12,536 nt of DNA from a virus (taxonomy: Duplodnaviria > Heunggongvirae > Uroviricota > Caudoviricetes). Below, in pieces: positions 7,828-12,536 of this stretch. Position numbers and translations under genes: made by a program. Under the pieces are notes generated by a model. It saw nothing but the letters and a program-made list of their open reading frames with translations, made no database searches and was not told the origin of the DNA. The stretch lies in the IMG/VR virus record IMGVR_UViG_2751185956_000013. One strand, given 5' to 3'. Position 1 is the stretch's first letter. Every line of letters begins with the position of its first letter.

Positions 7828-8731
7828 GTGCGCCCCCTGTGCGAATACGTCCGGCAAAAAAGCAAACGTGATCCCGCGCCAGAATGCGGCGGGCTTCCTG
7901 CTCAGTCTCTGCGGCGATATGGTGAATTTTGGCGGTAATTGTCGGCATATCGCGGCGAACTGCTGCGATAATCCAGATAAATTGCGGTTTTTGGGTAGGG
8001 GTAGTAGCCAGCATAGCGGCAGCCTCTGATTCATGGTTTTGAGAACCACCACCGGAAACGCCAATTTCGCTGGTGGTGAACTGTACAGGGTTGGCGTAAC
8101 CGGGAATCAGAGAAACCGGCGCGGATTGCTCCGCCCCCATACAGTCCACCATTGAACAGGTGTAACTGCGCGGCACAAAAAAACACGCATGGCGCGTGTT
8201 GTGCGCTCTGATAATTACCGGGACGCCAATCCCGACACCAGATTTTGCTGGTGCGCTATAACCATAAACCGGGTTGGCGATAGTCGGCAAGCCCTTTTTT
8301 ATGGACTCCAGAAACTCACCTTCGCGCGTGCGCGTACTGTTGCATAAATTCCCTGCATCTAGTGGTGATGTCAGAAAAATCTTCCCGCCTCGTGTAGTGA
8401 TGATGGGAAAATCTTCCTCGCGTAGTGACCCCCAATAAATCTTCGTGCGCGTACTGGTCTCGAAACTCTCCTCGTCACCACGACGAGAAAATGAGGAGCT
8501 GGCATTAGCTGGCACTGTTATGCCAGCTTCGCATTCATGCGCGTGCGTACTTGTCCCGAAAACACCAAGATTTGTAAAGATCTGGCGGTGGCAAATGTCA
8601 GGTTTTGACAGGTTCCAAACGTCGCTATTTGTCGCAATCTGGCGGCGGGCTGCTTTGCTCCAGACGTTAACATTTGCATACATCAGGCCAGCCAGGGGAA
8701 AGGCTTTATTCTGGATGGCGGCATTAAGCAT
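7820..8731 (-). CDS. hypothetical protein (303 aa) containing a degenerate tandem DNA repeat tract
   Basis: Long open frame with GGGGG RBS 7 nt upstream of ATG 8729-8731; start overlaps the AntA-type gene stop (ATGCTTAAT). No family recognised. The central part coincides with the repeat tract at 8311-8490, so the gene model is uncertain. Confidence 0.45.
   Translation of the reverse strand: MLNAAIQNKAFPLAGLMYANVNVWSKAARRQIATNSDVWNLSKPDICHRQIFTNLGVFGTSTHAHECEAGITVPANASSSFSRRGDEESFETSTRTKIYWGSLREEDFPIITTRGGKIFLTSPLDAGNLCNSTRTREGEFLESIKKGLPTIANPVYGYSAPAKSGVGIGVPVIIRAHNTRHACFFVPRSYTCSMVDCMGAEQSAPVSLIPGYANPVQFTTSEIGVSGGGSQNHESEAAAMLATTPTQKPQFIWIIAAVRRDMPTITAKIHHIAAETEQEARRILARDHVCFFAGRIRTGGAHA
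8311..8490. repeat. degenerate tandem repeat tract, about 6 units of 26-33 bp
   Basis: Plus-strand units beginning at 8311, 8344, 8374, 8407, 8435 and 8462, e.g. GAAAAATCTTCCCGCCTCGTGTAGTGATGATGG, GAAAATCTTCCTCGCGTAGTGACCCCCA, ATAAATCTTCGTGCGCGTACTGGTCTC. The GCGCGTACTG core recurs at 8330-8339 and 8447-8456. Unit lengths differ by non-multiples of 3, so copies are not in a constant frame of the 303-aa ORF. Confidence 0.45.
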
Positions 8732-9557
8732 GATTAGCCCCCAGATGTTTAGCTAACCAGCGCTGAGAGAGGCGGATTAGCTCGGCTTTACGCAGGTCAT
8801 ATCCCATACCCATATCAATTAACGTGATATTGGTGCTTTCGAGATAGGCGAGGTGTTCAAGCTGTGCTGCGTTCATGCTGTCCCGTGGTTCGCCAGTAAT
8901 GCCATTTGCCTGCGCCCACTGCTTCGCCGTCATGCCACCCAGCACGATACGGGCGATCATGTTGCTCTCGTTGCTGTAGTGGCGAGCCTGCGTCTGTTTA
9001 CCCTGTTCTGCGCGGGCGCTTTCCAGCGCTACGCACATCGGTTTAAACAGGTTGGCGGCACTGATACGGGCTTTTAGCTGGCGACGATAGCGGGCGGCGA
9101 TTTCAGGCACGCTACGCTGTAATTCTTCCTCGCACTGGATGAAATAACGGCGGATAGCGCGGCCCTGTTCAGTGCGTTCGATCATTGCCAGTTCTTTCGC
9201 CATTCCGACACTTAACAGATAGTCTTTGCCGGGTCTGCCAGAGTGCTTAATCTTGCTGTAAGCCGCGCCATTCGGGCTTTTCCCCAGATTTGGGGAAATT
9301 GTTTTATGGACTGAGTAATCGTGCCCAATGGTGAAGTCATATTCAGAGATGCGATCAGTGATCCATGTAGAGAAGTCTTTTCCCACGCCCAACGCTTTGT
9401 GTAACGCTTTTGCGCTAACAATATTGGCTTCACGCCCACCGATATGACCAGGAATAACCGGGACAATTGTGGCAAATTCATTACCGTTAATTGTTCCCTG
9501 ATAGGCGTTCAGATGAGGGGCGGCCTCAGAAATTAATCTGCTTTTTTCGATGTTCAT
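8724..9557 (-). CDS. phage antirepressor, AntA N-terminal domain plus KilAC/ORF6C-like C-terminal region (277 aa)
   Basis: N-terminal segment NIVSAKALHKALGVGKDFSTWITDRISEYDFTIGHDY fits the AntA antirepressor signature; downstream DYLLSVGMAKELAMIERTEQGRAIRRYFIQCEEEL fits the antirepressor C-terminal region pattern. GGAG RBS in the 12-nt gap after the 144-aa gene. Confidence 0.65.
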   Translation of the reverse strand: MNIEKSRLISEAAPHLNAYQGTINGNEFATIVPVIPGHIGGREANIVSAKALHKALGVGKDFSTWITDRISEYDFTIGHDYSVHKTISPNLGKSPNGAAYSKIKHSGRPGKDYLLSVGMAKELAMIERTEQGRAIRRYFIQCEEELQRSVPEIAARYRRQLKARISAANLFKPMCVALESARAEQGKQTQARHYSNESNMIARIVLGGMTAKQWAQANGITGEPRDSMNAAQLEHLAYLESTNITLIDMGMGYDLRKAELIRLSQRWLAKHLGANHA

Positions 9558-9569
9558 TTTCAGTCTCCG

Positions 9570-10004
9570 TTAGGCGGCGGTGAGATTGTCCGGGTATAGG
9601 TTGAGAATGTCGGCAATTTCAGGCTGAGAAAGTCCCTGATAGCCGCCAGCGTCGGCGTTATGGTTCACAAGCCGAATAACTTTTAGAACGTCACCGCGCC
9701 CGGTAAAGCGATAGCGTAAATGTGACCCTATCCCGTCGGGGTTCTTTTCGTCTATACGCTCAAGCTGAATATCAAGCCTGCGCTCTAACTCGCTGGCGTA
9801 GTTCCTTCCAGATGAAAGGCGGCAATATCGCAGAATGTCGTTTTCTGTCCATCCCTCTACGCCAGTACGCAGCATATAGACGCGGGCGCGGTGTTTCTTT
9901 GGGGTTCGCTTAGGTACTTGTACCGGGCTGGTGGTCGGCGTAATATCAGACGTGCGAATATCTGAGTTAGCCGCCTGCTGTACGGGGCGGTTTTTCTTTT
10001 TCAT
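9570..10004 (-). CDS. hypothetical protein (144 aa), basic N-terminus
   Basis: ORF MKKKNRPVQQAANSDIRTSDITPTTSPVQVPKRTPKKHRARVYMLRTG...; its ATG overlaps the AlpA stop (TAATG). No family recognised. Confidence 0.5.
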   Translation of the reverse strand: MKKKNRPVQQAANSDIRTSDITPTTSPVQVPKRTPKKHRARVYMLRTGVEGWTENDILRYCRLSSGRNYASELERRLDIQLERIDEKNPDGIGSHLRYRFTGRGDVLKVIRLVNHNADAGGYQGLSQPEIADILNLYPDNLTAA

Positions 10005-10207
10005 TACGCCACCTTTCCCCGGCGCTCCGCCAGCCAGTTATTAATCTCTACCGCATCAAAGGCGGTAATCTTCTCCCCCAGCTTTACCGGGCGCGGTAGC
10101 GAGCCGCTGCGAACTTTGCGATCAATGGTTGAAACACTAACGCCCAGCAATTCAGCAAGGCGGAAGCGTCTGATATAGCCTTTTGTAGGGATAGTGTCGA
10201 TGTTCAT
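10004..10207 (-). CDS. alpA: AlpA-family phage transcriptional regulator / excisionase-like HTH protein (67 aa)
   Basis: Translation RRFRLAELLGVSVSTIDRKVRSGSLPRPVKLGEKITAFDAVEINNWLAERR matches the AlpA/CP4-57 regulatory family pattern (L..vS.sTI.R.v..G.FP.PvKlG.r...W...ei..Wl). Located one gene away from the integrase, as in CP4-57-type islands. Confidence 0.75.
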   Translation of the reverse strand: MNIDTIPTKGYIRRFRLAELLGVSVSTIDRKVRSGSLPRPVKLGEKITAFDAVEINNWLAERRGKVA

Positions 10208-10259
10208 GATTCCCGTAACCTCTTAGCGGTAGTTGTTGCTTCGTTACGAGAAATCTAGC

Positions 10260-10273
10260 TGTATAGATATACA
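10260..10273. promoter_or_regulatory. dyad-symmetric operator-like site upstream of alpA
   Basis: TGTATAGATATACA: 6-bp arms TGTATA / TATACA around a 2-bp centre, in the 106-bp gap between the cargo-gene terminator and the alpA start. No convincing -35/-10 pair could be assigned by eye. Confidence 0.3.
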
Positions 10274-10302
10274 ATGAAAAGGTACTGTAATTTTGCAGTA
10301 CC
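10274..10302 (-). terminator. putative rho-independent terminator of the 316-aa cargo gene
   Basis: Perfect 7-bp inverted repeat GGTACTG (10281-10287) / CAGTACC (10296-10302) with an 8-nt loop, 11 nt after the stop at 10314-10316 and followed on the minus strand by TTTTCATT. Confidence 0.45.
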
Positions 10303-10313
10303 TCTATAGCAAG

Positions 10314-11264
10314 TTAACTATCCACTTTGCCATTTGCCGCAGATCGCAGCTGTTTAAGAATTACATCTTCATTAGTTATCATAAGTGGTGGAACTTCGTC
10401 TAAATGACGAACAAGACAGTCACGCCACTTCTCAGGGCTTATTTCTTTCCTTACTCCCCTGCATTCATTTGGATACTTACTAAGTATATAAATTGCAGAT
10501 TTTAATAGTTTCTCCCTATTGACTGCGTACCGTTCGGCACGTTTATTAACTTTTAGCGTATTTATATCATTGGATAACTTGTTTGCGGGTGGTTTGTGCA
10601 TGGGTCTGTCATAAATATATTTTCCTCCATTTATAAGAAGATTGTATTCATAGTCAGTTATATACATTTTATTTCGGCTTATTTCATACCAGCCGTCAAT
10701 ATAAAAAGCTCCGATTTCATAATTATTCGATTTGCTAAACTCGTCACATCTCGGAGGCGTCAGTTCGCATACGGAGATCTCCCAATCATCCCATTCTGAT
10801 AGCTCCCGCTCATCGTTATCTATGAACGCAGACGGAATTGCTAATAGACCGTTCCATCTTTCGATATCTCTTTCATCCTTCCCAACATTGTATCGCTCTA
10901 TAACTGAGAAATGTTCTGATTTGTATGAAAACCTCATAAAATACATATGGTTATCGCTATTTTTATAATCAAGCGGTGATAAGCCATATGATTCGAGATT
11001 ATCTGCCTCATTGCTCAGATTAAGAAGATAATTCTCATGTGCTGCTTTTGTATCTATATGAAAAATACTATCTGTTTCAACTTTAAGTAATTCTGGGTCG
11101 GCATCTTCATTTTTGGGGTAATGGTAAAACAATTCAATAGGTGGAATTTTTATACATATTTCTAAAACCCCAATTGCTGCATAGTGTATTAAATCGGATA
11201 CTTCACATCCGGCCAGTTTGGCTGCTTTATCCAAAGAATAATATTTATGCGCAGGTAATTTCAT
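10314..11264 (-). CDS. hypothetical protein (316 aa), AT-rich orphan cargo gene between integrase and alpA
   Basis: Clean 951-bp ORF starting 18 nt after the integrase stop, with GAGAGGAAAG RBS region and its own terminator. G+C about 35% in two 60-nt samples I counted (10561-10620, 10981-11040) versus about 57% in an integrase sample (12001-12060). Acidic, Tyr/Trp-rich protein; no catalytic motif recognised. Confidence 0.7.
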   Translation of the reverse strand: MKLPAHKYYSLDKAAKLAGCEVSDLIHYAAIGVLEICIKIPPIELFYHYPKNEDADPELLKVETDSIFHIDTKAAHENYLLNLSNEADNLESYGLSPLDYKNSDNHMYFMRFSYKSEHFSVIERYNVGKDERDIERWNGLLAIPSAFIDNDERELSEWDDWEISVCELTPPRCDEFSKSNNYEIGAFYIDGWYEISRNKMYITDYEYNLLINGGKYIYDRPMHKPPANKLSNDINTLKVNKRAERYAVNREKLLKSAIYILSKYPNECRGVRKEISPEKWRDCLVRHLDEVPPLMITNEDVILKQLRSAANGKVDS

Positions 11265-11282: not shown

Positions 11283-12536
11283 TCATGCTCTGATTGGCGT
11301 TACGTTGTAGTCTTTTCCGCTTTCCAGTGCCACCAGCAAATCACACCACTGCGCCAGCGCCGCTTTACGCTCATCAAAATACTGGTGACGGTTATAGATA
11401 CCTTCCACGCCTTTAATTTTGTGATTAAGGCATCTTTCTGCGACTACCGGATCAACGCCCAGCGCTGCTAAATGAGTACGTGCGGTGCGTCGGAAGTCGT
11501 GAATCGTGAAATTAGGCACATCCGGCATTTCAGCGCGAACCTTAGCCAGTGCTACGGGTAAAGTGCTTTCCTGAATATGTGGGATCATTCTGTTTTGCAT
11601 CTTCCTGGCTGGAAGCACCCATGCGCTGTTGCATGAGAACGTTTTAAGCTCTCTCAGCCATTCGACGGCTGGCGGTGCTAATGGGATGTCTATAGCGTCG
11701 CCGTTTTTGCTGCGTTCCTCTGGTAAATGCCATACGGCTTTATCAAAATCGAACTCCTCCCAGCGGGCGGCGCATAACTCCATTTTGCGGACGCATAACG
11801 CTAACAGTAATTTGAACGTGATTTCGTTCTGACGGCTGAATCCCTTAGCCGTGCGCATAGCCTGAAACAGTCGGATTAGTTCGCCACGTGTTAACCAGCG
11901 GTCGCGGGAAACTTCTTTCCCTCCGGCGTCTGCCACCTCAAAGGCTGAACACGGGTTAATCTCCAGTGCGTGCCGCTTAATGCCGTAGTCAAATATGCGG
12001 CGTGTCCAGCGCAGAACGTCCGTTGCTATGGTCGGCGCTCCACGGTCAACAATACTTTTCAGCATGTCGTCGATATGGCGCGGCTTCACGTCCTCCACCT
12101 TCATGCTGCCAATGCATGGGTTTATATCTTTGTCGATACGGCGGCGGAGTATATCGGGGTGCTTCCAGCGCGGGAGGATCTGACGCTCAAAGTATTCAGC
12201 GGCAAGCTCTGAAACGCGCATAGCGTTCTTCTCTGCTTCCATCTTCGCCAGTGCTTCGGTTTTGCGCTTCTGCTTCTCTCCTGCAACGTCATAGCCCAGC
12301 GCAACGCGAGCCGATAGCTCTTTGGCTGTCTCTCTGGCCTTTGATAGTGATAGCTCGGCATATGAGCCAATCAGCATGGCGCGGGGTTTCCCTGCGAATT
12401 TATAGCGGAATCGCCAGACGGGGGTCTGGTAGTTTTCGCGGTATGAAAGATAAAGCCCGTTACCGTCAGAGCGTCCCTCGAATCGCTCCCCGGCCTTTAT
12501 CCATGCGCGGATCTGCATGTCTGTGAGTTTTGGCAT
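11283..12536 (-). CDS. int: tyrosine-type site-specific integrase, P4-like (417 aa)
   Basis: Full ORF with ATG exactly at the window edge (12534-12536) and TGA at 11283-11285. Arm-binding-type N-terminus (GLYLSYRENYQTPVWRFRYKFAGKP) and catalytic-domain motifs HDFRRTARTHL (H-x-x-R) and GIYNRHQY (tyrosine nucleophile region). Confidence 0.9.
   Translation of the reverse strand: MPKLTDMQIRAWIKAGERFEGRSDGNGLYLSYRENYQTPVWRFRYKFAGKPRAMLIGSYAELSLSKARETAKELSARVALGYDVAGEKQKRKTEALAKMEAEKNAMRVSELAAEYFERQILPRWKHPDILRRRIDKDINPCIGSMKVEDVKPRHIDDMLKSIVDRGAPTIATDVLRWTRRIFDYGIKRHALEINPCSAFEVADAGGKEVSRDRWLTRGELIRLFQAMRTAKGFSRQNEITFKLLLALCVRKMELCAARWEEFDFDKAVWHLPEERSKNGDAIDIPLAPPAVEWLRELKTFSCNSAWVLPARKMQNRMIPHIQESTLPVALAKVRAEMPDVPNFTIHDFRRTARTHLAALGVDPVVAERCLNHKIKGVEGIYNRHQYFDERKAALAQWCDLLVALESGKDYNVTPIRA

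What the first reader, a model, noticed from the sequence alone, without database searches (positions are those of the whole stretch)
8311..8490. Frame-inconsistent tandem repeat tract inside the 303-aa ORF
Six degenerate units of 26-33 bp share the core AAATCTTCC..CGCGTAGTGA / GCGCGTACTG. Because unit lengths differ by 1-4 nt, the repeat is not maintained in one reading frame, which is atypical for a protein repeat and suggests selection at the DNA or RNA level. Candidate roles are a protein-binding array, a cis-acting replication region analogous to P4 crr, or an embedded regulatory RNA. Alternatively the 303-aa frame is only partly coding.
Basis: seen in the sequence. Interest (0 to 1): 0.5.

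Follow-up and report, generated by a model that had tools for sequence, protein, structure and literature searches.

The report
DNA repeat array inside satellite read-through gene
The repeats are real short DNA elements sitting just upstream of the immunity promoter of a phage satellite island, inside a long frame that is kept open but whose amino acids are not conserved; what the repeats do is still unknown, and most related islands lack them.

Summary
The repeat is real: 17 shared 7-mer pairs in 8311-8490, against 1.5±1.7 in shuffles. The window is an E. coli P4-like/Gram-negative PICI satellite.

The 303-aa ORF (7820-8731, minus strand) is the counterpart of P4 eta. It starts on the stop codon of the upstream antA/B gene. 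It then runs across an internal promoter, the isrK/seqA RNA (8254-8178) and the C4/CI immunity RNA (8156-8069), and ends as the nested 64-aa Icd/Kil gene.

Only the Icd part shows a coding substitution pattern. The rest, tract included, does not, yet the frame stays open in nearly every related island.

The tract lies at -57 to -236 from the isrK start. Each unit has a T-run, the core CA[C/G]TACGCG and a purine/T-run. Cores are spaced 28-32 nt apart, so they fall in different frames. The same unit recurs only in this position in many genera, and it is inverted in the commonest E. coli type. Copy number changes by recombination between units.

It is not the replication origin or a crr analogue, and not an RNA target. 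The best reading is a dispensable double-stranded DNA array, probably regulator-binding sites. The binder and the function are unproven.

The parts
8311..8490 (.). Repeat tract at -57 to -236 relative to the isrK 5' end (8254). It holds five direct units plus a palindromic sixth. Each unit has a T-run, 5-8 nt, the core CA[C/G]TACGCG, a GC-rich spacer and G-R-A-G-R-TTT.
8448..8456 (-). Core of unit 1 (CAGTACGCG), read in the ORF as S-T-R. It lies in the upstream copy of the 13-nt direct repeat CAGTACGCGCACG, which bounds the 117-nt deletion allele.
8419..8427 (-). Core of unit 2 (CACTACGCG), out of frame relative to units 1, 3 and 5 (read as S-L-R-E).
8391..8399 (-). Core of unit 3 (CACTACACG), read as T-T-R.
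8359..8367 (-). Degenerate core of unit 4 (CACCACTAG), out of frame (read as S-P-L-D).
8331..8339 (-). Core of unit 5 (CAGTACGCG). This promoter-proximal unit, at about -85, is shared by most related islands. It lies in the downstream copy of the 13-nt repeat.
8471..8487 (.). It sits in a block that is nearly invariant across genera.
8508..8527 (.). Inverted repeat GCTGGCA-TAACAG-TGCCAGC in the same conserved block upstream of the tract.
   Evidence: (I1)
8540..8552 (-). Distal degenerate core (AAGTACGCACGCG). Together with unit 1 it bounds another natural deletion allele (P0001).
7820..8731 (-). 303-aa eta-like read-through ORF. Its ATG (8731-8729) overlaps the antA/B stop codon (8726-8724). 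It contains the promoter, isrK and C4, and ends as Icd.
8261..8302 (-). Putative constitutive immunity promoter (P4 PLE / PisrK equivalent). It has an A-run ATAAAAAAGGG (8302-8292), -35 TTGCCG (8290-8285), an 18-nt spacer and -10 TATGGT (8266-8261), with +1 at 8254.
   Evidence: Read from the sequence. Same layout as P4 TTGCCT-18-TATAGT ahead of the P4 isrK match. The consensus scan did not call it. Conserved in more than 500 E. coli records.
8178..8254 (-). isrK / seqA-type leader RNA with an intrinsic terminator (stem 8200-8182 followed by a T-run).
   Evidence: (81.1 bits)
8069..8156 (-). C4 / P4 CI-type antisense immunity RNA. Its loop CUCUGAUUC (8112-8104) is complementary to GAAUCAGAG (8031-8023) at the icd ribosome-binding site.
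   Evidence: (76.7 bits), (positive control: 4 of 300 shuffles)
7820..8014 (-). Nested Icd/Kil-like gene (64 aa, ATG 8014-8012), in the same frame as the long ORF. It is the only part with a protein-coding substitution pattern.
8724..9557 (-). antA/antB-family gene whose stop codon overlaps the start of the eta-like ORF (translational coupling).

Best explanation
The tract is an array of short double-stranded DNA elements immediately upstream of the constitutive immunity promoter of a P4-like/Gram-negative PICI satellite. The array is embedded in the N-terminal part of the island's eta-like ORF.

Shown here:
- The ORF is homologous to P4 eta over its C-terminal 104 residues and shares its layout. 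It starts on the stop codon of the upstream gene. It contains the PLE-type promoter, the seqA/isrK leader and the CI/C4 RNA. It ends as the nested kil/icd gene.
- The frame is kept open in almost all relatives, but its amino-acid sequence upstream of Icd is not under purifying selection.
- The repeat unit recurs only at this location in many genera, in different frames and in both orientations.
- Copy number changes by recombination between units.

From the literature on P4 (not tested here): after induction, transcripts from the upstream promoter are translated through eta. That translation stops the immunity-dependent, Rho-dependent termination, so the replication genes are expressed. This explains why the frame only has to stay open, and why DNA signals can sit inside it without regard to frame.

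Inferred: the units are binding sites for a sequence-specific DNA-binding protein. That protein could be encoded by the island (the conserved 144-aa protein or the AntA/Bro-type protein are better candidates than the variable AlpA) or by the helper phage. Binding would tune the immunity promoter, or the passage of upstream transcription into it. The array is dispensable for the core circuit.

My confidence by step: ORF identity about 0.9; DNA-level nature of the repeat about 0.7; binding-array function about 0.4.
For: Context:
- isrK and C4 lie inside the ORF.
- Pfam Phage_ASH covers exactly the isrK+C4 stretch, and NCBIfam Icd-like covers aa 251-298.
- P4's own eta ORF (8168-8812) contains isrK and C4 and aligns with this ORF at E = 5e-11.
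- The eta/kil/CI/seqA scheme, and its extension to Gram-negative PICIs, is described in PMC10111431. IsrK is described there as a SeqA homologue in PMC4825925.
- Start-stop overlap with the upstream gene is seen in all annotated relatives.

Open frame without protein constraint:
- Codon-position counts are 5/8/7 in the tract and 9/8/35 in Icd.
- The same stretch carries 4-23 stops in each of the other five frames per locus (the zero in the eta frame there is by construction).
- 13 of 14 loci collected by a DNA pattern, not by ORF, keep an open frame of 239-356 codons through the promoter, isrK and C4.

DNA-level unit:
- There are 58 distinct unit instances.
- An nhmmer profile gives 93 hits within 600 nt upstream of the promoter, against 10 elsewhere in 354 kb. 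The loci are related, so this is not a probability.
- Cores occur in frames 2, 1 and 0.
- The base before the core's A is a conserved C even though the codon it ends encodes T, V, I or N.
- A two-unit segment is inverted relative to the promoter in the commonest E. coli island type.

Copy-number alleles bounded by unit sequences:
- A 117-nt deletion (L004 and many protein clusters), a 60-nt deletion (P0073) and a deletion in P0001.

Candidate binders:
- AlpA alleles differ (below 35% identity or no match) among islands that share the array. The 144-aa protein (77-94% identity) and AntA (70-90%) are conserved.
Against: - No binder is identified.
- The motif occurs nowhere else in the island, so there is no second target.
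- Core spacing is variable (24-34 bp across islands) and not helically phased, unlike Cox boxes or plasmid iterons.
- The tract is present in only 15 of 5426 complete E. coli genomes, while 1190 carry the isrK-C4-icd region. The commonest alleles have one unit, or only an inverted pair, so the array is not needed for the circuit.
- In orthologous arrays the cores are less variable than the rest (1/36 vs 13/131 columns; 4/36 vs 23/124), but not significantly (p = 0.31 and 0.45).
- Most cores share one frame (S/T-T-R).
- The Serratia fonticola array is entirely in frame, with unit lengths 33, 33, 30 and 24 nt. A protein-level origin of the unit therefore cannot be excluded.
Confidence: 0.5

Rival explanations
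1. The repeats have no sequence-specific function. The N-terminal part of eta only has to stay open, so it tolerates duplication, inversion, frameshift pairs and deletion. The units persist because they act as short homology patches where mosaic exchange between islands happens (the 'dynamic' Bro zone), and because islands spread horizontally.
For: - The tract is present or absent between otherwise similar islands, and is rare in E. coli.
- Module junctions coincide with unit cores: unrelated upstream sequence joins at TTTNGNGACCAGTACGCGC in L010, L023, L025 and L026.
- The inner units are 63-72% identical to the reference unit.
- The tract is more variable than its flanks, which are nearly identical across genera.
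- There is no significant extra conservation of cores in orthologous arrays.
Against: - The same roughly 25-nt unit, including its T-run and spacing, is kept in distant lineages where the flanking sequence is only 33-50% identical at the amino-acid level (Buttiauxella L016, Serratia L018, Pluralibacter L014).
- It is also kept after inversion.
- Hits are confined to one position relative to the promoter.
Confidence: 0.27
2. The repeat is a protein repeat of Eta (motif F-x-[TI]-[ST]-T-R-x-x-E-G-x-F). The out-of-frame units are decayed copies.
For: - About three quarters of the cores are in the S/T-T-R frame.
- The S. fonticola array is fully in frame, with unit lengths that are multiples of three.
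- Differences between unit types include ACT/ACA/ACC, ACG/ACA and CGC/CGA, which are synonymous in that frame.
Against: - There is no third-position bias or synonymous excess in the tract (5/8/7; 6 synonymous to 14 non-synonymous) while Icd shows both.
- Independent out-of-frame units keep the nucleotide core (window type, L007 type, L014, L016, L021).
- Inverted copies cannot encode the motif.
- No Pfam, NCBIfam or PHROG family covers aa 1-143.
- Alleles lacking the repeat are the commonest.
Confidence: 0.1
3. The tract acts as RNA in the upstream (induced) transcript. It could be a decoy or target for isrK or C4, a protein-sequestering array of GGA/SD-like motifs, or a structured element.
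For: - Units contain GGA/GAGG-like purine runs followed by U-runs.
- AGAUUUU is complementary to the AAAAUCU stretch spanning the loop and 3' stem base of isrK hairpin 1 (I3).
- The fold z-score is -2.54.
Against: - Duplex energy with isrK or C4 is no better than for shuffles (148/300 and 192/300). The known C4-isrK and C4-icd-RBS pairs stand out (3/300 and 4/300).
- The opposite strand folds equally well, z -2.58.
- Units are inverted in other islands.
- No Rfam match appears at E<=1.
Confidence: 0.04
4. The tract is a second binding region for the replication initiator, analogous to P4 crr.
For: - P4 has iteron clusters at two places.
- ATCACTAC in units 3 resembles the origin iteron ATCCCTAC in 7 of 8 positions.
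Against: - The origin candidate (3400-3655, at least 12 copies of TATCCCTAC) lies downstream of the primase gene and uses another motif.
- Related islands have origin iterons GTGGTTCA or GAACCAAC but the same tract core.
- The array type does not follow the primase type.
Confidence: 0.02

Closest known systems
P4 eta with nested kil in the P4 immunity region (PLE, seqA, CI RNA, timm; Forti et al. 1999 J Bacteriol 181:5225, as summarised in PMC10111431)
   Same: A long ORF that starts on the stop codon of the upstream gene, spans the constitutive internal promoter, the seqA/isrK leader and the CI/C4 RNA, and ends in frame as a roughly 64-aa Kil/Icd protein. The C-terminal 104 aa are homologous (E = 5e-11).
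   Different: In P4 eta starts only about 70 nt upstream of the PLE start and follows vis directly. Here it starts 477 nt upstream and follows antA/B. The extra N-terminal part carries the repeat array and two conserved palindromes, which P4 lacks.
P2 Cox boxes upstream of the P4 PLL promoter and at P2 Pc/attP (PMC3936717)
   Same: Six or more copies of a short box clustered next to a satellite promoter. Orientation of the boxes differs between targets. They are recognised by a small phage-encoded DNA-binding protein.
   Different: Cox boxes are 9 bp (TTAAAG/CNCA) spaced 10-11 bp apart. Here the core is CA[C/G]TACGCG with an accompanying T-run, spaced 24-34 bp. No binder is known, and the array lies inside an ORF.
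P1/P7 immI operon (c4 - icd - ant)
   Same: A C4 antisense RNA processed from the leader blocks the icd ribosome-binding site. Icd-like and Ant-like genes are present in the same region.
   Different: The gene order differs (ant is upstream here). An isrK/seqA leader and a read-through ORF are present. No repeat array is described in immI.
Gifsy-1 isrK locus of Salmonella (PMC4825925)
   Same: An isrK RNA with its own promoter and a leaky terminator, followed by a small ORF and an anti-repressor-like gene.
   Different: There is no C4 RNA or eta-like read-through frame in the described locus, and no upstream repeat array is reported.
Plasmid/phage iteron arrays (for example P4 ori/crr type I repeats)
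   Same: Clustered, imperfect short repeats in both orientations.
   Different: The motif differs from this island's own origin iterons and does not co-vary with them. The location is at a promoter, not at an AT-rich unwinding region.

Membership tests
P4 eta/kil-type read-through ORF of satellite immunity regions | A long ORF that begins upstream of the constitutive immunity promoter and ends, in the same frame, as the small Kil/Icd gene. | tested here: met
   The ORF is 8731-7820. The Icd-like domain covers aa 251-298, and the in-frame ATG is at 8014.
P4 eta/kil-type read-through ORF of satellite immunity regions | Contains the seqA-type leader and the CI/C4 RNA gene. | tested here: met
   isrK scores 81.1 bits and C4 76.7 bits inside the ORF. 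The same pair lies inside P4 eta.
P4 eta/kil-type read-through ORF of satellite immunity regions | The start codon is coupled to the end of the upstream gene. | tested here: met
   ATGCTTAA: the ATG at 8731-8729 overlaps the antA/B TAA at 8726-8724. Overlaps are seen in all annotated relatives.
P4 eta/kil-type read-through ORF of satellite immunity regions | Sequence homology to P4 Eta. | tested here: met
   BLASTP gives E = 5e-11 and 35% identity over 104 aa at the C-terminal end (C4 + Kil). There is no similarity in the N-terminal part that holds the tract.
P4 eta/kil-type read-through ORF of satellite immunity regions | Translation of the ORF prevents immunity-specific transcription termination. 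| not testable with these tools
   Only indirect support: the frame is kept open in 13 of 14 loci sampled without regard to ORFs, and it shows no amino-acid constraint.
P4 crr / origin iterons | The same iteron as at the element's origin, bound by the initiator. | tested here: not met
   The origin iteron TATCCCTAC (3400-3655) differs from the tract core. Origin iterons vary between islands while the tract core does not.
Protein tandem repeat | Units in one reading frame, with lengths that are multiples of three. | tested here: not met
   Core spacings in the window are 29, 28, 32 and 28 nt, and units 2 and 4 are out of frame. The feature is met only in the S. fonticola relative.
Protein tandem repeat | Amino-acid conservation with synonymous drift. 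| tested here: not met
   Codon positions 5/8/7 and 6 synonymous to 14 non-synonymous in the tract, against 9/8/35 and 35:17 in Icd.
Embedded regulatory RNA / antisense target | Match to a known RNA family, strand-specific structure, or complementarity to the immunity RNAs. | tested here: not met
   No Rfam match at E<=1. The z-score is -2.5 on both strands. Duplex energies are no better than shuffles. Units are inverted in other islands.
Operator / Cox-box-like binding array | Several copies of a conserved short box clustered next to a promoter, in either orientation. | tested here: met
   Five to eight units lie at -57 to about -400 in several lineages. There are 93 of 103 profile hits in this position, with inverted copies in the L024 type.
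Operator / Cox-box-like binding array | Regular, helically phased spacing. | tested here: not met
   Spacings range from 24 to 34 bp and differ between islands.
Operator / Cox-box-like binding array | A protein that binds the boxes. | not testable with these tools
   Candidates come only from conservation. The fold of the 144-aa protein is inconclusive.

The most novel reading that the evidence does not exclude
The tract is a dual-use stretch in which the DNA sites are what is selected, while the overlapping frame only has to stay open. Unit lengths are not multiples of three, so gain or loss of a single unit would shift the eta frame and create a stop. By the P4 precedent, that would make the induced transcript terminate before the replication genes. 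Unit-number change would then act as a heritable on/off switch of satellite inducibility, on top of the sites' role as a regulator-binding array at the immunity promoter.
Probability: 0.12. Interest if true: 0.65.

Novelty: new variant of a known kind. Interest (0 to 1): 0.4.

Why it matters
The immunity region of P4-like satellites and Gram-negative PICIs decides whether the island stays silent or replicates and hijacks a helper phage. How the constitutive immunity promoter is handled during induction is not known for PICIs.

A conserved, orientation-independent DNA element clustered right upstream of that promoter is a concrete handle for finding the missing regulator. The island's conserved 144-aa protein has no assigned function and is one candidate.

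The locus also matters for annotation:
- PGAP names this ORF variously 'Icd-like' or 'ash family', or leaves the tract unannotated.
- The Pfam family Phage_ASH corresponds here to the translation of two RNA genes.
- Reading frames of this kind should be treated as read-through frames that carry DNA and RNA signals, not as ordinary proteins.

If the repeats turn out to be neutral, the finding is ordinary.

Tried and rejected
- Tandem Repeats Finder does not detect the array. I used k-mer sharing against shuffles, and an nhmmer profile built from 22 hand-cut units, instead.
- RNA hypotheses were tested by folding both strands, duplex energies against isrK and C4 with positive controls, and Rfam at a permissive threshold. 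None supported them.
- The origin/crr hypothesis was rejected on motif, position and lack of co-variation.
- No other copies of the cores were found elsewhere in the window.
- I looked for a gene family whose presence follows the array type. All islands share AlpA, the 144-aa protein and an AntA/Bro-N protein, so there is no discrimination at family level. Only the degree of conservation separates them.
- The test of core versus non-core variability in orthologous arrays was underpowered (p = 0.31 and 0.45).
- A second motif cluster about 10 kb downstream in L034 and L041 looks like a remnant of another eta N-terminus rather than a second regulated promoter. I did not resolve it.
- The primary P4 papers (PMC94026, PMC176756) are not held. 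The eta mechanism is cited from my own knowledge of Forti et al. 1999 and from its summary in PMC10111431.
- One literature search returned only noise.
Full report
**What the window is.** The window matches an E. coli chromosomal island inserted next to yicC and dinD. All its genes lie on the minus strand:
- tyrosine integrase (11283-12536)
- a 316-aa gene
- AlpA-type HTH (10004-10207)
- a conserved 144-aa gene (9570-10004)
- antA/antB (8724-9557)
- the 303-aa ORF (7820-8731)
- several small genes
- a P4-family primase (3669-6167)

This is the integration / 'Bro' / replication layout described for Gram-negative PICIs and P4-like satellites (the role of AlpA is covered).

**The observation.**
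- On the transcribed strand the cores CA[C/G]TACGCG (two of them degenerate) start at 8456, 8427, 8399, 8367 and 8339. The spacings are 29, 28, 32 and 28 nt.
- Each core is preceded by a T-run and followed by a GC-rich spacer and G-R-A-G-R-TTT.
A further degenerate core lies at 8540-8552.
- The tract shares 17 pairs of 7-mers, against 1.5±1.7 in 1000 dinucleotide shuffles. None of the shuffles reached the observed value.
- Tandem Repeats Finder misses the array because the copies are only 63-72% alike.
- Units 1, 3 and 5 are read as S/T-T-R, and units 2 and 4 in other frames.

**What the 303-aa ORF is.** Rfam finds two complete RNA genes inside it: isrK (8254-8178, 81 bits) and C4 antisense RNA (8156-8069, 77 bits).
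- Pfam Phage_ASH matches aa 157-250, which is exactly the isrK+C4 stretch. NCBIfam Icd-like matches aa 251-298.
- The C4 loop CUCUGAUUC is complementary to GAAUCAGAG at the ribosome-binding site of an in-frame ATG (8014). That ATG opens a 64-aa Icd-like protein (duplex control).
- In phage P4 itself, the ORF 8168-8812 contains an isrK match (8692-8615) and the C4/CI match (8507-8420). It ends as the 65-aa Kil and aligns with the window's ORF at E = 5e-11. That P4 ORF is eta.
- PMC10111431 summarises Forti et al. 1999 as follows. [quoted passage not shown] Full-length Eta is translated only from an upstream promoter. [quoted passage not shown] Its translation prevents termination, so the downstream genes are expressed. 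The authors note CI and seqA homologues in PICI 'Bro' genes.
- IsrK is described as a structural homologue of P4 SeqA in PMC4825925.
- The window shows the same coupling: the ATG at 8731 overlaps the antA/B stop codon. So do all annotated relatives.
- By alignment with P4 PLE (TTGCCT-18-TATAGT), the window's promoter is TTGCCG (8290-8285), 18 nt, TATGGT (8266-8261), with the isrK 5' end at 8254 and an A-run just upstream. The generic consensus scan did not call it.
- The tract therefore lies at -57 to -236 from the start of the immunity transcript.

**Coding or not.** A protein search with the N-terminal 159 aa found more than 500 clusters of 225-279-aa ORFs in Enterobacter, Klebsiella, Citrobacter, Salmonella, Serratia and others. 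These ORFs run from the same start to the Icd end.
- I compared 14 loci codon by codon. The Icd part has variants at codon positions 1/2/3 of 9/8/35 (35 synonymous, 17 non-synonymous).
- The tract has 5/8/7 (6:14). The conserved block upstream has 12/8/9, the promoter block 4/5/3 and isrK 6/10/8.
- So nothing upstream of Icd evolves like a protein.
- Yet the frame is open everywhere, while each of the other five frames carries 4-23 stops per locus over the same stretch.
- In 14 distinct loci collected from viral contigs by a DNA pattern, and so without bias towards open frames, 13 keep a frame of 239-356 codons through the promoter, isrK and C4.
- This is what the eta mechanism predicts: the frame must be translatable, but its product is not constrained.

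**The repeat in relatives.** Loci from 14 species and 19 viral contigs, plus four contigs found through proteins, show a mosaic region.
- The promoter block, and an upstream block with two palindromes, are almost invariant across genera. The tract is a module that is either present or absent.
- L004 and many other alleles lack exactly the 117 nt between the two copies of CAGTACGCGCACG. P0073 lacks 60 nt between units 1 and 3. P0001 lacks the stretch between the distal core and unit 1. All three are recombination products between units.
- A second array type (L007, L021, L022, L033) has different spacers but the same cores, one of them again out of frame.
- Distant lineages carry five to eight units in otherwise diverged sequence: Buttiauxella L016, Pluralibacter L014, Enterobacter L010 and Serratia fonticola L018.
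- A profile built from 22 units finds 93 hits within 600 nt upstream of the promoter and 10 elsewhere in 354 kb.
- In the commonest E. coli island type (L024-like) a two-unit segment of about 60 nt is present in inverted orientation relative to the promoter and the ORF. It keeps the T-run, the spacing and GTCACTACGCGAG.
- Cores appear in all three frames. The C preceding the core's A is conserved even though the codon it closes encodes T, V, I or N.
- Together these points favour a double-stranded DNA element over a peptide or an RNA.

**Counter-evidence.** Several results keep the functional claim modest.
- Most cores share one frame, and the S. fonticola array is fully in frame.
- Spacing is irregular.
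- Orthologous comparisons are too shallow to show extra constraint on cores.
- The tract occurs in only 15 of 5426 complete E. coli genomes, all at least 99.4% identical, while 1190 genomes carry the isrK-C4-icd region.

**Alternatives tested.**
- *Origin or crr.* The island has an obvious origin candidate downstream of the primase gene: at least 12 copies of TATCCCTAC in both orientations around an AT-rich centre (3400-3655). Other islands have GTGGTTCA or GAACCAAC iterons there but the same tract core. The tract is therefore not an initiator-binding region.
- *RNA.* There is no Rfam match. Both strands fold equally well. The tract has no excess complementarity to isrK or C4, while the known pairings stand out.
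- *Protein family.* None covers aa 1-143.

**Who might bind.** AlpA alleles differ strongly among islands that share the array. AlpA's own promoter region carries no copy of the motif. The 144-aa protein (77-94% identity, no annotation) and AntA/B (70-90%) are conserved. The model of the 144-aa protein gave no significant fold match. The binder remains unknown.

**Verdict.** The repeat itself is an undescribed, dispensable, recombination-prone array of DNA elements at that promoter. A regulator-binding array is the best-supported function, at about 0.4. Neutral homology patches in an unconstrained frame are the main rival.

Noticed in passing
window 3400-3655: At least 12 copies of the 9-nt iteron TATCCCTAC, in both orientations around an AT-rich centre, lie directly downstream of the P4-family primase gene. 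This is probably the island's replication origin. Related islands carry different iterons at the same place (GTGGTTCA, GAACCAAC).
   Followed up: partly
window 7982-8263 (aa 157-250 of the 303-aa ORF): The Pfam family Phage_ASH (PF10554) matches exactly the stretch that encodes the isrK and C4 RNAs, and that stretch shows no coding substitution pattern. Here the 'Ash' family looks like the conceptual translation of RNA genes inside the eta frame. PHROG hits labelled 'transcriptional repressor' cover the same part.
   Followed up: partly
window 7820-8731 and its copies in E. coli genomes (H1-H15, H56-H70): PGAP annotation of the identical sequence is inconsistent. It appears as a 303-aa 'Icd-like protein', as 'ash family protein' plus a separate Icd-like protein, or with no feature over the tract.
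   Followed up: no
window 8444-8530: A block upstream of the tract is almost invariant from Escherichia to Lonsdalea, while its neighbours are mosaic. It contains the inverted repeat GCTGGCA-N6-TGCCAGC and the 17-bp palindrome CTCGTCGTGGTGACGAG. It shows no coding signature, so it may be a further DNA-level signal.
   Followed up: partly
window 8296-8302 (minus strand): The heptamer A-AAA-AAG lies in the eta frame (ATA AAA AAG), like the dnaX -1 frameshift site. A -1 slip would end at the TAG at 8259-8257, just before the isrK start. The same bases form the A-run directly upstream of the -35 hexamer, which may be the whole explanation.
   Followed up: no
L018 2880-3100 (Serratia fonticola): Five well-kept units, all in one frame, are followed by CCATAAAAAAGGGC. 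After that there is no -35, isrK, C4 or icd. The frame continues into a 707-aa ORF. This is an array without the immunity cassette.
   Followed up: partly
L041 13100-13520 and L034 2640-2950: A second cluster of four to five unit-like elements lies about 10 kb downstream of the immunity promoter, in an apparently non-coding stretch. It is possibly a remnant of another island's eta N-terminus.
   Followed up: partly
L002 and L038 (E. coli GDSC2239PM type): This is a natural variant in which a different isrK-C4 allele breaks the eta frame, giving 199-aa and 119-aa ORFs. It could serve as a natural test of whether the read-through frame is needed.
   Followed up: no
L024-type islands (L017, L027-L045): Here the eta-like frame passes through the icd region in a different frame and continues into the next gene (356 codons). 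The read-through frame does not always end as Icd.
   Followed up: no
window 9570-10004 (minus strand): The 144-aa protein is highly conserved across Enterobacterales PICIs (83-97% identity in the 120 best of 685 clusters), and has no family in Pfam, NCBIfam or PHROGs. The model has a disordered N-terminus followed by a helix-helix-helix-hairpin-helix-helix order. No significant structural match was found.
   Followed up: partly
window 10208-10400 and L005-L018: The int-alpA RNA motif (RF02996) is found upstream of alpA in seven related loci but not in the window, even at E<=1.
   Followed up: partly
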